Source of the DNA: a virus
Lineage: Duplodnaviria > Heunggongvirae > Uroviricota > Caudoviricetes
DNA: 5,562 bases
Virus record (IMG/VR): IMGVR_UViG_3300028981_000030
Direction: 5' to 3' (one strand)
Shown here: one piece after another, positions 106-5,562 of the stretch
Layout: each line of letters begins with the position of its first letter
How positions within the stretch are numbered: position 1 is the first letter of the stretch
Made by a program: the position numbers and the translations under genes
The notes under the pieces: model-generated
The model's input: only the letters and a program-made list of their open reading frames with translations
Told to the model about the DNA's origin: nothing
The model's database searches: none

Positions 106-134
106 CCCAATAAAACGGGGCGCTCGGCCCCTTA
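106..134 (-). terminator. putative rho-independent terminator downstream of the 346-aa fibre-like gene
   Basis: Perfectly complementary arms ggggc (117..121) and gcccc (127..131) with a 5-nt loop. On the minus-strand transcript the stem is followed by GUUUUAUU, and it lies 6 nt after the TAA stop at 138..140. The stem is short (5 bp, all G-C), hence moderate confidence. Confidence 0.45.
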
Positions 135-137
135 ATA

Positions 138-1178
138 TTATTTAGACGCAAGCGCCGCATCAATTGCAGATAATCTTTGTCTTAATTCTGCGTTTTCTTC
201 TTCCAGTGCTGTTATTCTGTCGTCTGACTCTCTGGCTACCTGAACAAGCAAGCCAGTAACACCAGAATAATCTACTGTGTAATAACGTTCACCTTCTTCA
301 CCTTCCGATCCGCTCGCACCGTCCTGATATTTCATTGCGGAACCTACAACTTCTGGGATTGCTTCCAGAGCTTCCTGTGCAATGACACCAGCATAGGGCA
401 TACCGTTTTCTTTAAGCGTGTATGTATAGCCGTTCATTTTACGGATGCGGTCGGTTGCATTATCGATCACCTGAATGTTGTCTTTCAGATCCCGGTCGGA
501 ATGCTGGTTAAATGCGGTGGCATGACATGCACCATTAACGCTTAACATATAGGTGTTATCGGTATTTTTCTGCGCATAGAACATATAAGCGCCACCATCA
601 ACACCGACTTCATAAACAACAGGACGGCTGGAGTTGCCCCACAATTGAGCAGTAACACCAGCATAAGCGGTTCCCTGTGTGTTTAATGTCATGGTTGACC
701 CATGATTGGCATATTTGATCTGTAATGTGTCGGTGTAATCAAATTTAATAAGCGCGTTACTTCCACGCTTGCTGTATGACATAAGGCAGTTACCCATTTT
801 GAGGTATCCGCTGTCACCGGGAAAAATCATCGTACCGCCATAAAGGTTGGTAAAGTCCCAGCAAATGTTTGTCCCGTTATCGTTCAGGTTAAGGCGCGCC
901 ATTGCGTTACCTGGACTGTCTATCCATTTTTTGAGGTATAGTTCGCAATACGCATCCTCAACACCTGCCGTCCTGTGAGTTGAGCGGAGTTTTCTCCCAA
1001 ATATAGCTCCGCTAGTTGGCAATACCTGCTGATACCATGAAGCAGACCAGTCACCAACGATTTCATCTTTGCTGTCTACATATAATTTTGTTGCGTAGCT
1101 TCCTTGATCGTTTTTTAATTTGCTAACGTCGGATTTTAGCGTTTTGATGTCATCAGGAATTACTGTCGATGTAGCCAT
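138..1178 (-). CDS. tail fibre / receptor-binding-like protein with C-terminal intramolecular chaperone auto-processing domain (peptidase S74-like)
   Basis: 346-aa ORF with ATG at 1178..1176 and a GAGGGAGA Shine-Dalgarno about 4 nt upstream. The motif HSDRDLKDNI at residues 226-235 has Ser227 (codon 498..500) and Lys232 (codon 483..485) spaced exactly as the catalytic Ser/Lys dyad of the C-terminal intramolecular chaperone domains of endosialidases and phage T5 L-shaped fibre. The C-terminal helix DDRITALEEENAELRQRLSAIDAALASK is typical of that domain. The N-terminal ~225 residues are beta-rich and G/N/T/Y-rich, like fibre tips. Confidence 0.75.
   Translation of the reverse strand: MATSTVIPDDIKTLKSDVSKLKNDQGSYATKLYVDSKDEIVGDWSASWYQQVLPTSGAIFGRKLRSTHRTAGVEDAYCELYLKKWIDSPGNAMARLNLNDNGTNICWDFTNLYGGTMIFPGDSGYLKMGNCLMSYSKRGSNALIKFDYTDTLQIKYANHGSTMTLNTQGTAYAGVTAQLWGNSSRPVVYEVGVDGGAYMFYAQKNTDNTYMLSVNGACHATAFNQHSDRDLKDNIQVIDNATDRIRKMNGYTYTLKENGMPYAGVIAQEALEAIPEVVGSAMKYQDGASGSEGEEGERYYTVDYSGVTGLLVQVARESDDRITALEEENAELRQRLSAIDAALASK
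141..506 (-). other. intramolecular chaperone / self-cleavage domain (S74-like) within the 346-aa protein
   Basis: Residues ~225-346: the SDRDLK motif followed by a predicted coiled-coil C-terminal helix. Domain boundaries are approximate. Confidence 0.6.
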
Positions 1179-1181
1179 TTG

Positions 1182-1190
1182 TCTCCCTCA
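1182..1190 (-). promoter_or_regulatory. Shine-Dalgarno for the 346-aa gene, overlapping the stop of the 93-aa ORF
   Basis: The minus-strand sequence reads GGATGTGAGGGAGACAA-ATG. The TGA stop of the upstream ORF is embedded in the ribosome-binding site, and the intergenic gap is only 9 nt, suggesting coupled expression. Confidence 0.5.
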
Positions 1191-1469
1191 CATCCAGCCA
1201 CGAAGTTGATGTTCAACTACAACCGCGTATTCATCGAATATTGACGATTTTTTTGCATCATTAATGATGCGCACGTTTACAAAATATCCGTTTTCCTTAA
1301 TACATATCGGTTCGCCATCTTCAGTCAGTTCTCCGGTTTCTTTGTACACGTTACCTATCACGTCAATAAGAATATCATCCTGCATCGACTCGTCATCATA
1401 ATAGCCAGCACTCCCCATAAAGGCCGAAAATTCGGCCCTGTCGGCAAATTTGAGTGTTAAATCTTTCAT
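1188..1469 (-). CDS. small acidic hypothetical protein (93 aa), translationally coupled to stf; candidate fibre-associated chaperone or adaptor
   Basis: ORF from the track. Its ATG (1469..1467) overlaps the stf TAA stop (1471..1469) by one base (TAATG), and a GGGGGAG Shine-Dalgarno lies about 8 nt upstream inside the stf 3' end. The protein is rich in D/E. I recognise no similarity to lambda Tfa. Its position between two fibre genes is the only functional hint. Confidence 0.55.
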   Translation of the reverse strand: MKDLTLKFADRAEFSAFMGSAGYYDDESMQDDILIDVIGNVYKETGELTEDGEPICIKENGYFVNVRIINDAKKSSIFDEYAVVVEHQLRGWM

Positions 1470-3841
1470 TAGATTGACTCCCCCACCTGAGCATCAGTCA
1501 ATGCCTTGTGCCATATTCTGAAATTCCTGACATGACCAAATAAATGACGTAACCCGGCTGTAGTCTGGCCTCCAATACGGATAATTGCGGTGTTCTGAAT
1601 ACAGGACCATGTGGTTTTTGTTTCGCTGGATATACGCCCGTTACTTACTGAGCACGTAGACTGATCTGACTTTACACGCATCCCCATAACCATTTTTTCA
1701 AGCAATGCGTTTTCATTTACCCGTCTGTTAGCTCCTCCAATATCGCAATAAGGAAATCCGTCGTAATCTGCTGAAGAACCGAAGCCAAGAATAATAGCCG
1801 CTCCGGTTTGATGACCGCCGGTGTCAAAAACACGCGGCGCTGCATTTGGCGTTTTATACCAGTTCTTATGTACCTCACAAAGAACCGTAAAAGGAAGATT
1901 ATAAAGATTATTCTTAATGGGAACTGTAACTATATCGCTTGCGCGGGTCGCCGCCGTCGTTCCTGATATAATAAAAGATGATACACAAGGCCCATTTTCT
2001 ACTTGTGGGGTGGCCAGATAAATATAGTCACCAGATACGGTTACCCCGCCCTGCTTAGGAGAATACTGTATCTGAGAACCTATTTTTAACTCCCCATCAA
2101 TTGCCTGAATTGTTGCCTCTGCAAAAATCCATCCGGTAGCTTCGTCCTTTCTGACTCTCGCTGTAATCCTTGAGGCAGCGCCGCCTGTCATATTAATTTC
2201 AAGCGTTTGTGTATCAATATACGCATCACCAAGAAAAGTTGTTGCGCTACCGTCATATTTATCAAACCGGATACGCAACCTTACCTGCAGTTCTGTTTTA
2301 AAACGACATGAGGTTGTCACGTATTTATTATCGCCTGAGACATCAACTGACTTTGTTGCAGCAATTGATGCCATATTAATGGCTGAGGTTTGCCCAATCA
2401 GAGAATCGTTACAGACAAACTTTCCATAGGTAAAACCAAAACTATCCTTCCCGGTTTCGGGAACATCCATATTTGACGATCGCCCCCAACTGGCAGGGTT
2501 TTCCGAATTGAGCATGTAGTTTGTTCTTTGCCCCTCAATAAGCAGGCCATCACGTTCAAATCGTGGCTCGTCAATGGCAGCCTCTGTCAGCACACCAGAT
2601 TTGTTAATATAGGTTGCTTTCGATGCACGTTTAAACTTAACAATCTTGTCGCCAGGCATCGTTATTTCATCGTCACCAATAACAATTTTTTTATATGATG
2701 GCGAAAAGCCCGTAATCATATCCAGCGAATCGTTAAATGGTATCCACACATCAGGCAGCGGCTGTAAGACATATTTATACGGCTCCGCAGCCTGGCTTGC
2801 GTACTCTCTGGCTGCATCTTCGCTTGCTTTAGCTGCCGTCTGGCTTGCTGCCGATGCTTTCGCTGAGTTCGCAGCCGCTGTTTCGCTCACCTTTGCGTTG
2901 GTTTCACTGGTTTTTGCTGCTTTTTGACTGTTAGCTGATGCAGTGGCAGAAGCAGCCGCCGCGCTTGCAGAACTGGCTGCGGCACTCTCGCTTTGGGCCG
3001 CTGCATCCTGACTGCTTTTCGCCGCAGTTTCACTGGCTTTGGCATTCGTTTCGCTGGTCTTCGCTGCCGTCTGGCTGGACTTTGCGTTAGTTTCACTCGT
3101 CTTCGCAGCTTTCTGGCTGTTAGCCGCAGCAGTTGCTGATCCAGCTGCTGAAGTCGCAGAACCGGCTGCCGCGCTCTCGCTTTGGGCTGCTGCAACCTGG
3201 CTGTTTTTTGCCGCAGTTTCACTGGCTTTGGCATTCGTTTCGCTGGTTTTCGCTGCCGTCTGGCTGGACTTTGCGTTGGTTTCGCTCGTCTTTGCGGCTG
3301 TCTCGCTATTTTTCGCGTTGGTTTCTGATTTTTTGGCTGCTGTCGCGGAGTTTGCCGATGCAGTCTTTGAGGTCGCTGCCGCCTGTGCACTATTAGCTGC
3401 ATTCGTTTCTGAGGTTTTCGCCGCGTTCTTCGATGATGCCGCTGCAGTTTCGGATTTCTTTGCCGCCGCTGCGCTCTGAGAGGCGGCTTCAGCGTTGCGT
3501 GCCGCTTCTTCCACCATTTCCTCAAAACGACGCAATGCCTCCGGCATGACATCATCTTCCGTCATGGCACCGAGAAAATCATTCAGCGTACCTGGTCTGG
3601 AACCTTCATAGACGGTAATGGTCCCGGCATGTGAAGGCGGAAAACCTTCAACAAGCAGGATAACGCTGTACTGGCCATACTCAACATCCATGCTGTAACG
3701 CCCGGCTTCATCCGGATTTTCAGAGGCCACCGTGTTCACCAGTACCGTGGTGCTGTTACGCTTTGCCTTCAGTTGAATAGTGCAGTTCTGTATTGGTTTT
3801 CCCGCACCATCTTTCAGCACACCTGAAATCTGTACTGCCAT
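1469..3841 (-). CDS. stf: side tail fibre protein (Stf-like), mosaic: lambda-Stf-like N-terminus, Ala/Ser heptad shaft, C-terminal region ending in a LamG/concanavalin-like signature
   Basis: The N-terminus MAVQISGVLKDGAGKPIQNCTIQLKAKRNSTTV...YSMDVEYGQYSVIL...FPPSHAGTITVYE closely matches my recollection of the lambda Stf N-terminal virion-attachment region. The preferred start is ATG 3841..3839, with GGAG 5 nt upstream; the ORF track begins at GTG 3847. Residues ~113-354 form an Ala/Ser/Thr/Lys-rich 7-residue repeat. The C-terminus ...GLRHLFGHVRNFRIWHKALTDAQVGESI fits the characteristic end motif of LamG_3-type jelly-roll lectin domains (G-x-[IV]-x-x-[VF]-R-I-[WY]-x-x-A-L-[ST]-x-x-[EQ]-[IV]). 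Confidence 0.85.
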   Translation of the reverse strand: MAVQISGVLKDGAGKPIQNCTIQLKAKRNSTTVLVNTVASENPDEAGRYSMDVEYGQYSVILLVEGFPPSHAGTITVYEGSRPGTLNDFLGAMTEDDVMPEALRRFEEMVEEAARNAEAASQSAAAAKKSETAAASSKNAAKTSETNAANSAQAAATSKTASANSATAAKKSETNAKNSETAAKTSETNAKSSQTAAKTSETNAKASETAAKNSQVAAAQSESAAAGSATSAAGSATAAANSQKAAKTSETNAKSSQTAAKTSETNAKASETAAKSSQDAAAQSESAAASSASAAAASATASANSQKAAKTSETNAKVSETAAANSAKASAASQTAAKASEDAAREYASQAAEPYKYVLQPLPDVWIPFNDSLDMITGFSPSYKKIVIGDDEITMPGDKIVKFKRASKATYINKSGVLTEAAIDEPRFERDGLLIEGQRTNYMLNSENPASWGRSSNMDVPETGKDSFGFTYGKFVCNDSLIGQTSAINMASIAATKSVDVSGDNKYVTTSCRFKTELQVRLRIRFDKYDGSATTFLGDAYIDTQTLEINMTGGAASRITARVRKDEATGWIFAEATIQAIDGELKIGSQIQYSPKQGGVTVSGDYIYLATPQVENGPCVSSFIISGTTAATRASDIVTVPIKNNLYNLPFTVLCEVHKNWYKTPNAAPRVFDTGGHQTGAAIILGFGSSADYDGFPYCDIGGANRRVNENALLEKMVMGMRVKSDQSTCSVSNGRISSETKTTWSCIQNTAIIRIGGQTTAGLRHLFGHVRNFRIWHKALTDAQVGESI
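1472..2050 (-). other. putative LamG/concanavalin A-like lectin domain at the Stf distal end (boundaries approximate)
   Basis: The terminal motif GHVRNFRIWHKALTDAQV resembles the conserved C-terminal strand of LamG-like domains. The N-terminal boundary is a guess from typical domain size (~150-200 aa). Confidence 0.45.
2786..3511 (-). repeat. 21-nt (heptad) periodic Ala/Ser-rich coding repeat array in the stf shaft
   Basis: The DNA shows recurring gcttt/gcagc/ttcgct units. The protein reads as consecutive heptads (AAKTSET NAKSSQT AAKTSET NAKASET ...) with Ala at positions 1-2 and Ser at position 5. Lambda Stf has a similar low-complexity shaft. Confidence 0.8.
2921..3298 (-). repeat. direct tandem duplication, 2 x 189 bp (2 x 63 codons), inside the stf shaft
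   Basis: Protein residues 184-246 and 247-309 are near-identical 63-aa blocks (AAKTSETNAKSSQTAAKTSETNAKASETAAK[N/S]SQ[V/D]AAAQSESAAA...ANSQK). At DNA level, ctctcgctttgggc[c/t]gctgca...gcagtttcactggctttggcattcgtttcgctgg recurs at ~2986 and ~3175, an offset of 189 nt. A third partial copy follows toward lower coordinates. Confidence 0.85.
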
Positions 3842-3851
3842 ACTCACTCCA

Positions 3852-3880
3852 CAAATAAAAAAGGCGCCATTTCTGGCGCC
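3852..3880 (-). terminator. rho-independent terminator between J and stf (minus strand)
   Basis: Perfect 7-bp stem ggcgcca (3863..3869) / tggcgcc (3874..3880) with loop tttc. On the minus-strand transcript the stem is followed by UUUUUUAUUU (complement of the A-run at 3853..3862). It lies about 20 nt downstream of the J stop at 3902..3904. A terminator distal to J is my recollection for lambda. Confidence 0.7.
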
Positions 3881-3901
3881 CGTATTGGGGTTATAAATAT
3901 T

Positions 3902-5562
3902 TCAACGGATACTGATACCGGAAGCGGCTTTTTTGGTCACAATCACCGTACAGTCGGTGATATTGCCTGCCCCCTGATTGCCTTTCTGGAAAACCTTAAA
4001 CTCCAGAGTGACGCTACCACCACCACTAGGCATATCAATAACTGCACTGTAACTACCGGGAATGGCCCCTTTAGTTTCTCTGGATGCGATTAATACGCCG
4101 TTTTTGCGAACTTCAAAACCATAACCCGTGTATCGCGTGCCTCCTGGGTTATTTCCGCTCCCCGGATCGTCATACGCTATACCGTTAAAAATAATGGGCG
4201 GAATAATAATCTGGCGGTCAAAGTTATGATCATCGCTGATGGTGACTGTAACCGTACCGTTTGGTGTTTCCGTGTTACCCCACGTACCGACTTTTTTCGG
4301 GAAGGCTTTTGATACAGCTTTAACGAAATCCCCTCTGACCTGGGTCGCCTCCAGCATGCCCTTAATCGTACAGTTCTGGTTAATCGTGACATTGTTGAGC
4401 GTTCCTGAGTTCGCATTCACACTACCACTGATATCCGCATTTTTAGCGGTCAGCTTTCCGTCTGATGTCAGGGAAAATACCGGAGGACTGCCACCGCTGG
4501 TAATGGTGGGGGCTGTCAGGCGCTTCAGGAACACGTCGTTCATGAATATCTGGTTGCCCTGCGCCACAAACATCGGCGTTTCATTCCCGTTTGCCGGGTC
4601 AATAAACGCGATACGGTTAGCGGCAACCAGAAACTGGCTCAGCTTGCCTTCCTCCGTGTCCTCCATGCTGAGACCAATACCCGCGACATAATGTTTGCCG
4701 TCTTTGGTCTGCTCAATTTTGACGCCCCACATGGCATTCCATTTATCGTTAGCGTCCTTCCACTCTTTCGAAAACTCATCCAGTCTGCTGGCGTTATCCT
4801 CCGTCAGATCGACTTTTTCCAGCAGCTCCTTGCCGAGATGAGATTCGGTTATCTTGCCTTTGAAAAAATCCAGATAACCTTCCGCATCATCGCTCGCCCG
4901 ACCGACGGCCTCCACGAATGCCGATTTGCCAACGGTGTTCACACTGCGGATATAAAAGTAATAATCATGGCCCGGTTTGATATTGATACTGGCGGCTATC
5001 CAGTACAGCGCCGTACCAAGATAGCGGGCTGTGGTTTCAACCTGCCTGATATCGGTAATCCGCTTTTCCGAGAACCAGAACTCAAACTGTACCGTCGGGT
5101 CATAAACGGCAAGATGCGGCGTGGCGGTTATCTGAAAATAGCCCGGCGTCAGCTCAATCCGCGACGGCGCTGCCGGTGCGGCGATCCGGAACGATACCGA
5201 TGCAGGATCGCCCTGCTGTCCCCATGCATTTACCGCCCGGACTGTCAGCCTGTAATTTCCCAGCGCCAGCTGCCTGAAGCGGTATGTGGTTTCCGTCGTC
5301 CGGGCCGTGATGACCAGCCGCTCACTGCCGTCATCCGCTGTTACGGTCAGACGGAGCAGGAAGCTCACGCCCTTCACCACCTTCGGCGTGTCCCATCGCG
5401 CCAGCACCTGATATTCCCCGCTGTCTGCGGTGACTTCGGCGGTCAGGTGCTGCACCGCTGGCGGCGTGACACCATTCACCGTGCCGCTCTGGTCGCCGTC
5501 AAAGTGCGCCCCGTTATCCACGATGGCTTCTTTTTCCGGTACATGCTGCACGGCGGTGATGG
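3902..5562 (-). CDS. J: host specificity / tail tip protein J-like, C-terminal portion (5' end lies beyond the window)
   Basis: The frame is open to the window edge (...[11 protein letters not shown]...). The segments [22 protein letters not shown] and TAPTITSGG and the overall layout match my recollection of lambda-family J proteins, including fibronectin-III-like repeats. The last ~150 residues are Gly-rich and would correspond to the receptor-binding region. The TGA stop is at 3904..3902. Confidence 0.85.

What the first reader, a model, noticed from the sequence alone, without database searches (positions are those of the whole stretch)
2786..3511. Heptad-repeat shaft with a 2 x 189-bp tandem duplication: likely recombination and length-variation hotspot
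About 240 codons are built from 21-nt units, with two near-identical 189-bp blocks in tandem (2921..3109 and 3110..3298) and a third partial copy. Such arrays can expand or contract by slipped or unequal recombination, changing fibre length, and offer homology for swapping distal domains between phages. The small differences between copies (N/S, V/D, G/S substitutions) suggest the duplication is recent but not brand new. Assemblies of such regions are also prone to collapse, so copy number should be verified.
Basis: seen in the sequence. Interest (0 to 1): 0.45.

Follow-up and report, generated by a model that had tools for sequence, protein, structure and literature searches.

The report
Repeat-built shaft of phage side fibre
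This stretch encodes the rod-like coiled-coil shaft of a lambda-type side tail fibre in an E. coli prophage, and its 63-residue block occurs in 0 to 3 copies in related prophages, so fibre length does vary in nature; it is a clear example of a known kind of thing.

Summary
Window 2774-3508 (minus strand) encodes 35 uninterrupted heptads (position 2 Ala 32/35, position 5 Ser 32/35) within a 790-aa lambda-Stf-type side tail fibre gene (1469-3841). Blocks 3110-3298 (A) and 2921-3109 (B) are tandem 189-nt copies, followed by a two-heptad partial third copy.

"Near-identical" and "recent" are wrong. A and B are 85% identical in DNA and 89% in protein. Synonymous divergence is 0.47, and both blocks recur across hundreds of alleles with different distal domains.

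Length variation is confirmed. With the same distal domain, related E. coli prophages carry 17, 20, 26 (one copy), 28, 33, 34, 35 (two copies, dominant) or 44 (three copies) heptads. One one-copy allele and one three-copy allele contain hybrid A/B units, as unequal crossing-over predicts.

The shaft is most likely a trimeric alpha-helical coiled coil, not a beta-helix. This rests on homology to lambda gpStf and an all-helix AlphaFold2 model. One block would add about 9 nm.

Distal-domain swaps are real, but most junctions lie at the shaft's distal end (PLPDVW motif, 2744-2761), not inside the duplication. This is an ordinary feature that is well documented here.

The parts
1469..3841 (-). Side tail fibre gene (lambda Stf type), 790 aa, ATG at 3841
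   Evidence: ORF (a GTG two codons upstream is also possible). PF08400 phage_tail_N E=1.8e-67. phrog_1419 'tail protein' matched end to end. Annotated 'side tail fiber protein' in phage PhiR63_1, which differs at 17 of 790 aa.
3560..3841 (-). N-terminal collar (tail-attachment) domain, aa 1-94
   Evidence: phmmer E=1.8e-49 to PDB 9e7m/9mgh 'Tail fiber protein' residues 1-94, the lambda gpStf N-terminus. Its role as a collar around the tail is from PMC12617516.
2774..3508 (-). Shaft: 35 consecutive heptads (EAARNAE ... QAAEPYK), predicted alpha-helical coiled coil
   Evidence: Heptad layout. Position 2 is Ala in 32/35 and position 5 is Ser in 32/35. The AlphaFold2 single-chain model is all helix, pLDDT 80. 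It corresponds in position to the proximal trimeric coiled coil of lambda gpStf, residues 102-393 (PMC12617516).
3110..3298 (-). Repeat block A (first in gene order), 9 heptads / 63 aa
   Evidence: Its tail heptads are AAKNSQV AAAQSES AAAGSAT SAAGSAT AAANSQK.
2921..3109 (-). Repeat block B (second in gene order), 9 heptads / 63 aa
   Evidence: Its tail heptads are AAKSSQD AAAQSES AAASSAS AAAASAT ASANSQK. It differs from A at 28 nt and 7 aa.
2879..2920 (-). Partial third copy (AAKTSET NAKVSET), two heptads
   Evidence: It would be the likely crossover partner if the A-only one-copy allele L005 arose by deletion of block B (inference).
3299..3340 (-). Related two-heptad pair just upstream of block A (AAKKSET NAKNSET)
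   Evidence: It belongs to the 42-nt sub-repeat that Tandem Repeats Finder detects at 3033-3119, period 42.
3215..3298 (-). Heptads 1-4 of block A: the best-conserved stretch between the blocks and the likely crossover zone
   Evidence: It differs from 3026-3109 at only 5 of 84 nt, all synonymous. The hybrid units L001_u1 and L006_u2 switch type within this stretch.
3026..3109 (-). Heptads 1-4 of block B: partner of the stretch above
2744..2761 (-). PLPDVW motif at the shaft/distal-domain junction, which is the common swap junction
   Evidence: Homology with Nonagvirus phage ESCO3 (97.4% nt) begins at window 2764. Homology with phage 21 resumes at 2790. The same motif follows unrelated N-terminal parts in P0158, P0166, P0168, P0170 and P0199.
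1469..2773 (-). Distal (presumed receptor-binding) domain, about 435 aa
   Evidence: NCBIfam NF048003 GTA_spike_fiber covers aa 434-634, E=9.6e-14. phrog_5939 covers aa 369-790. The AlphaFold2 model is poor (pLDDT 44), so the fold is not established.
3862..3881 (-). Terminator-like hairpin between J and the fibre gene
   Evidence: Terminators are annotated at the same position in phages 434, 21 and mEp460.
1188..1469 (-). 93-aa gene of unknown function that travels with the distal domain
   Evidence: phrog_1361. It is conserved directly downstream in L001, L005-L008 and ESCO3.
138..1178 (-). 346-aa second fibre protein with a C-terminal S74 intramolecular chaperone domain
   Evidence: PF13884 E=4.8e-14 and phrog_4563. 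It is part of the module shared with ESCO3 (hit H16).
3902..5551 (-). C-terminal part of the central tail fibre gene J (runs off the window)
   Evidence: Pfam Ig_J, Ig_J_second, Phage_Tail_Tip and Ig_GpJ_C.

Best explanation
The region encodes the proximal shaft of a lambda-Stf-type side tail fibre of a lambdoid E. coli prophage.

Three chains are anchored to the tail by the N-terminal collar domain. They then most likely wind into a parallel trimeric alpha-helical coiled coil of 35 heptads. Two to three heptad positions hold small residues (Ala at 2, Ser at 5, Ala/Asn at 1). At 0.148 nm per residue the shaft would be about 36 nm long, and it carries a distal binding domain at its end.

A 63-residue (nine-heptad) block is present twice in tandem. 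Because 63 is a multiple of 7, adding or removing a block changes the rod length by about 9 nm without breaking the heptad register.

The duplication is old and is kept under purifying selection. The first four heptads of each block stay nearly identical and act as substrate for homologous recombination, either unequal crossing-over or slippage. This occasionally yields one-copy and three-copy alleles, and it exchanges sequence between the blocks.

The conserved N-terminus plus shaft gives the 5' homology that lets different distal domains be recombined in, mostly at the shaft's distal end.

Shown here: the repeat anatomy, the helix prediction, the natural copy-number series with hybrid units, and the mosaic junctions. 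Inferred: the trimeric state, the actual length change, the recombination pathway and any fitness effect.
For: Identity of the gene:
- PF08400, phrog_1419 end to end, PDB 9e7m lambda gpStf residues 1-94 at E=1.8e-49, and position directly after J.

Coiled coil:
- 35 in-phase heptads, with Ala 32/35 at position 2 and Ser 32/35 at position 5.
- The AlphaFold2 model of aa 91-370 is helical throughout, pLDDT 80.
- Lambda gpStf residues 102-393 are described as a proximal trimeric coiled coil from cryo-EM, cryo-ET and AlphaFold3 (PMC12617516).

Age and constraint:
- pS=0.47 and pN=0.048 between A and B.
- At least 66 of 71 full-length IMG/VR alleles have both blocks, with 21-40 nt differences between A and B within an allele.

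Exchange between blocks:
- 18 shared polymorphisms against 4 fixed differences in 49 haplotype pairs.

Copy-number series on the same distal domain:
- 854-aa alleles A-A-B: P0001-P0003 / L006-L008.
- 727/728-aa one-copy alleles in 27 protein clusters, including P0154 with 219 members, and in complete genomes CB209 and FFFEB2. One-copy shafts also occur in complete genomes MSB1_4I and AVS0655, on variant distal and downstream genes.
- 665-aa zero-copy allele P0148, 742-aa alleles, and the 783-aa allele L004 lacking one heptad.

Hybrid units:
- L001_u1 has A-type markers in heptad 1 and B-type markers thereafter.
- L006_u2 has B-type markers in heptad 1 and A-type thereafter. These are the reciprocal products expected of unequal crossing-over within heptads 1-4.
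- L007 and L008 each carry their own private SNPs in both duplicated units, so at least three independent expansions occurred.

Module exchange:
- N-terminus plus shaft are mostly 90-100% identical in 60 alleles whose distal parts fall to 30-60%.
- The same distal domain sits on Nonagvirus, tinuso-type and P2-type N-terminal parts.
Against: - The trimeric coiled coil is not demonstrated for this protein. Only a single-chain model could be made, and it folds back at the Gly-containing heptads of block A.
- A core of Ala and Ser is unusually small for a coiled coil.
- No solved structure covers any Stf shaft: PDB 9e7m stops at residue 94.
- Three-copy alleles come only from three draft assemblies, and none was found among 5,426 complete genomes.
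- The two-copy form dominates strongly, so changes are either rare or selected against.
- Some length variants delete a number of residues that is not a multiple of 7 (P0126, P0160, P0152). Either register is not strictly required or those alleles are defective.
- No experiment links shaft length to adsorption.
Confidence: 0.8

Rival explanations
1. The two-copy array in this window is an assembly artefact, either a collapsed or an over-expanded repeat, and the true copy number differs.
For: Tandem repeats of 189 nt are harder to resolve with short reads. Alleles with 1 and 3 copies exist in public assemblies, so copy number cannot be assumed.
Against: - The same A-B arrangement at the same coordinates occurs in four independently sequenced phages that cover the whole window at 97% identity (PhiR63_1, Tritos, HannyBb, 2G7b).
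- 551 complete genomes carry at least 80% of the gene, and at least 66 of 71 full-length IMG/VR alleles have both blocks.
- A and B differ at 28 sites, with no exact shared run longer than about 38 nt, so assemblers can tell them apart.
Confidence: 0.03
2. The repeat is a purely structural, selectively fixed feature. The length variants are rare decay products of defective prophages or assembly errors, so the region is not a meaningful variation hotspot.
For: - The two-copy form dominates: the largest cluster has 4554 members against 219 for the largest one-copy cluster.
- None of the 71 full-length IMG/VR alleles differs by a whole block.
- Out-of-register deletions exist (P0126, P0160). The MSB1_4I prophage carrying a one-copy allele has a truncated J gene and IS elements.
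Against: - One-copy alleles form 27 distinct protein clusters, some on contigs above 1 Mb and in intact-looking prophages.
- Variants differ by exact multiples of 7 aa in most cases: 63, 7 or 14 aa, or 49 aa for the 742-aa alleles.
- Hybrid units and at least three independent expansions show recurrent events.
- Naturally short-shaft relatives such as phage 21 are viable phages.
Confidence: 0.12
3. The shaft is a triple beta-helix or beta-spiral of the kind found in other phage fibres, not an alpha-helical coiled coil. The reader left this open.
For: Many phage fibre shafts are beta-structured, and the Ala/Ser-rich, weakly hydrophobic sequence is not a textbook coiled coil.
Against: - Strict 7-residue periodicity holds over 245 residues, with only 2 Gly and 1 Pro.
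- The AlphaFold2 model is helix throughout.
- The corresponding region of lambda gpStf is described as a trimeric coiled coil (PMC12617516).
- Weak sequence matches are to the N-terminal part of the T5-type L-shaped tail fibre (PDB 8hqz) and to depolymerase N-terminal regions.
Confidence: 0.04
4. The repeat region hides an overlapping gene, because long ORFs run on the plus strand (3039-3479) and in another minus-strand frame (2887-3555).
For: ORFs of 146 and 222 codons exist there.
Against: - Their products are low-complexity mirror images of the Ala/Ser codon repeat.
- None has a Pfam match and there is no Rfam match.
- The annotated frame is under strong purifying selection (pN/pS about 0.1).
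Confidence: 0.01

Closest known systems
[quoted passage not shown]
   Same: - Same N-terminal collar domain (PF08400; PDB 9e7m at E=1.8e-49).
- Same gene position after J.
- Same kind of Ala/Ser/Thr-rich heptad shaft, sharing the AAKTSETNA motif with the lambda-like mEp460 fibre.
- Presumably four trimeric fibres per virion, as in lambda.
   Different: - The shaft sequence diverges from about residue 118 (homology to phage 434 and other Stf alleles ends at about window 3487-3492).
- The lambda-like mEp460 shaft shows no 63-aa tandem block; lambda's own shaft sequence was not examined here.
- The distal domain is unrelated to lambda's T4-gp37-like tip. It has a GTA_spike_fiber-like domain instead.
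- The downstream genes are a 93-aa protein and an S74-chaperone fibre, not tfa.
Streptococcal M protein repeat blocks (size variation by recombination between intragenic repeats; from my own knowledge, not tested here)
   Same: An alpha-helical coiled-coil rod built of tandem in-frame repeat blocks. Alleles differ by whole blocks, hybrid blocks mark homologous recombination, and surface reach changes with length.
   Different: It is a dimeric bacterial surface protein under immune selection, whereas this is a trimeric phage fibre. Variation is frequent in M protein; here the two-copy state dominates.
Phage T4 gp37 adhesin duplications and the mosaic tail fibres of P2, Mu, P1 and lambda (from my own knowledge)
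   Same: Recombination between short repeated motifs inside fibre genes produces duplications and swaps of distal receptor-binding parts between unrelated phages.
   Different: In those cases the repeats lie in or next to the receptor-binding tip and change host range directly. Here the repeat is in the proximal rod and should change reach, not specificity.
T5-type L-shaped tail fibre (pb1/LtfA) and Drexlerviridae/Dhillonvirus lateral fibres with long N-terminal coiled coils
   Same: Side fibres of siphoviruses with an N-terminal anchor, a long coiled-coil shaft and a distal tip. There is a weak sequence match to PDB 8hqz chain d, residues 40-226 (E=0.02). Coiled-coil shafts in such fibres are noted in PMC11990801.
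   Different: The anchor system differs (a separate collar protein in T5). There is no significant sequence homology beyond composition, and their tips carry the S74 chaperone in the same polypeptide.

Membership tests
Lambda Stf-type side tail fibre | N-terminal PF08400 collar domain homologous to gpStf residues 1-91 | tested here: met
   PF08400 E=1.8e-67. PDB 9e7m/9mgh residues 1-94, E=1.8e-49.
Lambda Stf-type side tail fibre | Gene lies directly downstream of the central fibre gene J (with or without lom) in a lambdoid tail module | tested here: met
   J C-terminus at 3902-5551 and the fibre gene at 1469-3841 on the same strand. Relatives show J-lom-stf or J-stf.
Lambda Stf-type side tail fibre | Long coiled-coil shaft after a short linker | tested here: met
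   35 in-phase heptads and an all-helix model. The oligomeric state could not be tested.
Lambda Stf-type side tail fibre | T4-gp37-like distal tip that binds OmpC, assembled with the Tfa chaperone | tested here: not met
   The distal domain matches NF048003 GTA_spike_fiber and phrog_5939 instead. The downstream genes are phrog_1361 and an S74 fibre, not tfa. It is therefore an Stf-family fibre with a different distal module.
Alpha-helical coiled coil | Heptad periodicity with conserved core (a/d) positions over a long stretch | tested here: met
   Position 2 is Ala in 32/35 and position 5 is Ser in 32/35, with no phase break over 245 residues. The core residues are unusually small.
Alpha-helical coiled coil | Chains actually form a parallel trimer | not testable with these tools
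   Only single-chain prediction is offered. Inferred from lambda gpStf (PMC12617516).
Tandem-repeat length polymorphism by homologous recombination | Alleles differ by whole repeat units, in frame | tested here: met
   665, 727/728, 790/791 and 854 aa correspond to 0, 1, 2 and 3 blocks of 63 aa on the same flanks.
Tandem-repeat length polymorphism by homologous recombination | Hybrid units at the recombination joint | tested here: met
   L001_u1 (A then B) and L006_u2 (B then A) switch marker type within heptads 1-4.
Tandem-repeat length polymorphism by homologous recombination | Measured elevated rate of change, dependent on recombination functions | not testable with these tools
   Needs an experiment. 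Database frequencies only show that variants are a minority.
Triple beta-helix / beta-spiral fibre shaft | Beta-strand repeats with regularly spaced Gly/Pro and alternating hydrophobic residues | tested here: not met
   Shaft composition is A 89, S 46, T 27, K 25, E 19, with 2 Gly and 1 Pro in 245 residues. The model is helical.

The most novel reading that the evidence does not exclude
Shaft length acts as a tunable ruler. Stepwise gain or loss of the 63-residue block (about 9 nm) would adapt the reach of the side fibre to the thickness of the host's O-antigen or capsule layer. Copy number would then be under host-dependent selection, and the near-identical first four heptads of each block would be maintained because they keep the array recombinogenic.
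Probability: 0.2. Interest if true: 0.5.

Novelty: new member of a known kind. Interest (0 to 1): 0.3.

Why it matters
Side fibres set how quickly, and on which surface types, a lambdoid phage adsorbs. They are also the part being re-engineered for phage-based delivery vehicles (PMC11338833).

This locus offers a natural series of 0, 1, 2 and 3 blocks on one distal domain. It is a ready-made test of whether fibre reach matters for adsorption.

The results also show where nature joins distal domains to Stf shafts: at the PLPDVW junction. That is practical information for designing chimeras.

For annotation and assembly, the two-copy state can be trusted. Three-copy calls from short reads deserve checking.

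Tried and rejected
- A query with three blocks plus flanks, meant to pick out three-copy genomes, failed. Two-copy genomes covered it fully as two joined pieces. An A-tail/A-head/A-tail junction query replaced it and found no three-copy allele in the complete genomes.
- The AlphaFold2 model of the distal domain, built from a 25-sequence alignment of 78-99% identical relatives, reached only pLDDT 44. No fold search was run, because matches would be meaningless.
- The PDB sequence search gave nothing for the shaft beyond weak compositional matches (depolymerases 7lzj/7vyv, RNA polymerase II CTD, T5-type fibre 8hqz). These are not treated as homology.
- There is no Chi site in the window, no Rfam family, and no Pfam match for the alternative-frame ORFs.
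- The first MAFFT run timed out and was repeated with fast settings.
- A literature search for tail-fibre tandem duplication or unequal crossing-over found nothing specific to this protein.
- Whether the top 120 hits of the distal-domain search left out the 790/791-aa proteins for a technical reason is unclear. Cluster counts are therefore indicative only.
Full report
**What the window is.** All genes run on the minus strand:
- the C-terminal part of the central tail fibre gene J (3902-5551; Ig_J, Phage_Tail_Tip and Ig_GpJ_C domains);
- a terminator-like hairpin (3862-3881);
- a 790-aa fibre gene (ATG 3841 to 1469);
- a 93-aa gene (1188-1469);
- a 346-aa fibre protein ending in a Peptidase_S74 intramolecular chaperone domain (138-1178).

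The 790-aa protein has the PF08400 'prophage tail fibre N-terminal' domain (E=1.8e-67). It matches phrog_1419 from end to end. Its first 94 residues match the only solved part of lambda gpStf (PDB 9e7m/9mgh, E=1.8e-49).

The whole window is 97% identical to Escherichia phages PhiR63_1, Tritos and HannyBb, and 96.5% identical over 91% of it to 2G7b. At least 80% of the fibre gene is present in 551 of 5,426 complete E. coli genomes, for example UTI89. The finding therefore lies inside a lambda-Stf-type side tail fibre gene of a lambdoid prophage.

**The observation.**
- Tandem Repeats Finder reports period 189, 2.2 copies, 84% matches, at 2891-3307.
- Self-identity over 2786-3511 is 0.64 at offset 189, 0.44-0.52 at other multiples of 21, and at most 0.38 elsewhere.
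- Shuffling the 35 heptad-sized blocks 2000 times never gave a tandem 9+9 match above 0.65, against 0.85 observed.

The array is hierarchical. The heptad consensus is [A/N]-A-[K/A]-x-S-[E/Q/A]-T. A two-heptad motif AAKTSET NAKxSxT (period 42) occurs before block A, twice at the head of each block, and once after block B as the 'partial third copy'. The nine-heptad block is the top level.

From EAARNAE (3488-3508) to QAAEPYK (2774-2794) there are 35 heptads with no phase break. Position 2 is Ala in 32 and position 5 is Ser in 32.

**Structure.**
- A single-chain AlphaFold2 model of aa 91-370 is helical throughout (helices at residues 5-141 and 150-261 of the modelled segment, i.e. protein residues about 95-231 and 240-351; mean pLDDT 80).
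- The only break lies at the Gly-containing heptads of block A, where the lone chain folds back on itself. I regard this as a single-chain artefact, though it could mark a softer point.
- Yu et al. (Sci Adv 2025, PMC12617516) describe Ur-lambda gpStf as a collar domain (1-91), a flexible linker (92-101), a proximal trimeric coiled coil (102-393), a hinge and a distal part.
- Our shaft begins at the same position after the same collar domain. It shares motifs such as AAKTSETNA with the lambda-like shaft of mEp460.

The coiled-coil reading is therefore well supported and the beta-helix alternative is not. The trimeric state is inferred. At 0.148 nm per residue (textbook value), 245 residues give about 36 nm and one block about 9.3 nm.

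**Age of the duplication.**
- A and B differ at 28 nt, of which 21 are synonymous: pS=0.47 and pN=0.048. Heptads 1-4 give pS=0.27 and pN=0; heptads 5-9 give pS=0.62 and pN=0.089. That is far more than the few percent separating alleles of the same block.
- At least 66 of 71 full-length IMG/VR relatives with a near-identical N-terminus have both blocks. A differs from B by 21-40 nt within every allele.
- Shaft length in these relatives is constant at 33-34 heptads by that script's count, which scores the window's 35-heptad shaft as 34. Their distal domains differ.
- Across 49 distinct A/B haplotype pairs there are only 4 fixed differences but 18 polymorphisms shared between paralogous sites. 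This is the signature of repeated sequence exchange between the blocks. Eleven of the 49 pairs have an eight-heptad B block that was compared out of register, which inflates the B-only polymorphism counts in heptads 8-9.

The duplication is old, selectively maintained and partly homogenised. It is not 'recent'.

**Length variation.** The first protein search returned mostly 790/791-aa proteins, plus three 854-aa proteins, exactly 63 aa longer. Laid out in heptads they read A-A-B.

At the DNA level:
- In L006 the middle unit has B-type markers in heptad 1 and A-type markers thereafter, as expected of an unequal crossover between B and A.
- In L007 and L008 units 1 and 2 are identical, and each pair carries its own private SNPs.
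- At least three independent expansions therefore occurred.
- The A-tail to A-head joint in L007 and L008 does not exist in a two-copy genome, so a simple assembly loop is unlikely. These are still draft assemblies, and no three-copy allele was found in the complete genomes.

A synthetic one-copy query found uninterrupted one-copy alleles in complete genomes:
- CB209 (728 aa), MSB1_4I, AVS0655 and FFFEB2;
- an allele lacking one heptad in strains 203740 and ATCC 43886.

L001 is an A-head/B-tail hybrid, the reciprocal deletion product. L005 keeps only block A.

The search with the distal domain revealed many more variants on the same distal domain:

| Allele class | Length (aa) | Heptads | Examples |
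|---|---|---|---|
| Zero copy | 665 | 17 | P0148 |
| Short shaft | 684-688 | 20 | many clusters |
| One copy | 727/728 | 26 | 27 clusters, incl. P0154 (219 members), some on contigs above 1 Mb |
| One copy plus two heptads | 742 | 28 | P0150, P0157 |
| Two copies, B lacks a heptad | 784 | 33 | PhiR11_1 |
| Two copies, A lacks a heptad | 783 | 34 | L004 |
| Two copies (dominant) | 790/791 | 35 | P0047 (4554 members) |
| Three copies | 854 | 44 | P0001-P0003 |

A few deletions are not multiples of seven (P0126 at 757 aa, P0160 at 718 aa, P0152). Phage 21 has the same N-terminus and distal domain with a different 19-heptad shaft. Fibre length polymorphism is real and recurrent, and it operates at the 21-, 42- and 189-nt levels. 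The two-copy form is by far the commonest.

**Swapping of distal domains.** In 60 distinct IMG/VR alleles the first 800-1,050 nt of the gene (N-terminus plus shaft) stay mostly at 90-100% identity to the window. Downstream parts fall to 30-60%. Divergence starts at about gene nt 810 (just after block B, the PhiR11_1-like class), 1080-1170, 1260-1350 or 1890.

Pairwise comparisons:
- Homology to phage 434 ends at window 3489, the first heptad.
- Homology to mEp460 ends at 3453.
- Homology to phage 21 ends at 3315, just before block A, and resumes at 2790, the end of the shaft.
- Nonagvirus phage ESCO3 shares 2764-1469 at 97.4%, together with both downstream genes (one search hit H16), behind an unrelated shaft.

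The same distal domain follows the motif PLPDVW (window 2744-2761) in several fibre types: P2-type fibres (PF12571/PF03406), tinuso-type fibres, and proteins annotated as 'head spike fibre'. The commonest junction is the shaft's distal end, however, not the duplicated blocks.

**Other readings.** The long ORFs in other frames and on the plus strand are by-products of the codon repeat. They have no family match and there is no RNA family in the window. No Chi site is present.

**Verdict.** This is a well-behaved member of a known kind: a coiled-coil fibre shaft built of tandem repeats. It has documented natural copy-number polymorphism and module exchange. It is useful as a natural length series and as a guide for chimera design, but it is not surprising to a phage biologist.

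Noticed in passing
window 210-2764: The distal domain of the fibre and both downstream genes (93 aa and the 346-aa S74 fibre) are shared as one block, at 95-97% nt identity, with Nonagvirus (Queuovirinae) phage vB_EcoS_ESCO3. That phage has a different N-terminal domain and shaft. This is a cross-genus transfer of a three-gene adsorption module.
   Followed up: partly
window 138-1178 (minus strand): There is a second fibre protein with a C-terminal Peptidase_S74 intramolecular chaperone but no recognisable tail-anchor domain. It always accompanies this distal domain, so it may dock onto the side fibre (a branched fibre), perhaps with help from the 93-aa protein at 1188-1469.
   Followed up: no
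window 3848-3901: There is no lom gene between J and the fibre gene, only a terminator-like hairpin (3862-3881). Many close relatives (L001-L008) carry a 199-aa Ail/Lom gene here. Others, including PhiR63_1, phage 21 and PhiR11_1, also lack it.
   Followed up: partly
window 3131-3172 (heptads AAAGSAT SAAGSAT of block A): These heptads hold the only two Gly residues of the shaft, and block B has Ser/Ala there. The single-chain AlphaFold2 model breaks its helix exactly at this point. It could be a softer point of the rod or just a single-chain artefact.
   Followed up: no
proteins P0126 (757 aa), P0160 (718 aa), P0152 (728 aa): Natural shaft deletions that are not multiples of seven residues would shift the heptad register. 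It is unknown whether such fibres still assemble.
   Followed up: no
window 1940-2542 (aa 434-634): The centre of the distal domain matches NCBIfam NF048003, the 'phage head spike fiber' domain named after gene transfer agent head spikes. The AlphaFold2 model of the whole distal domain was too poor (pLDDT 44) to compare folds.
   Followed up: partly
E. coli 'Esc' strains, 106,011-bp plasmid records (e.g. NZ_OZ369471.1): A series of identical 106-kb plasmids carries a related heptad shaft in a protein annotated 'phage head spike fiber domain-containing'. This may be a phage-plasmid using the same fibre parts.
   Followed up: no
window 2887-3555 (minus, other frame) and 3039-3479 (plus): Long ORFs of 222 and 146 codons are created by the Ala/Ser codon repeat. 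They have no family matches and are probably not genes, but they could mislead gene callers.
   Followed up: yes
window 117-131: A GC-rich hairpin sits just after the stop codon of the 346-aa gene. It scores as a terminator on both strands and probably ends the tail-fibre operon.
   Followed up: no
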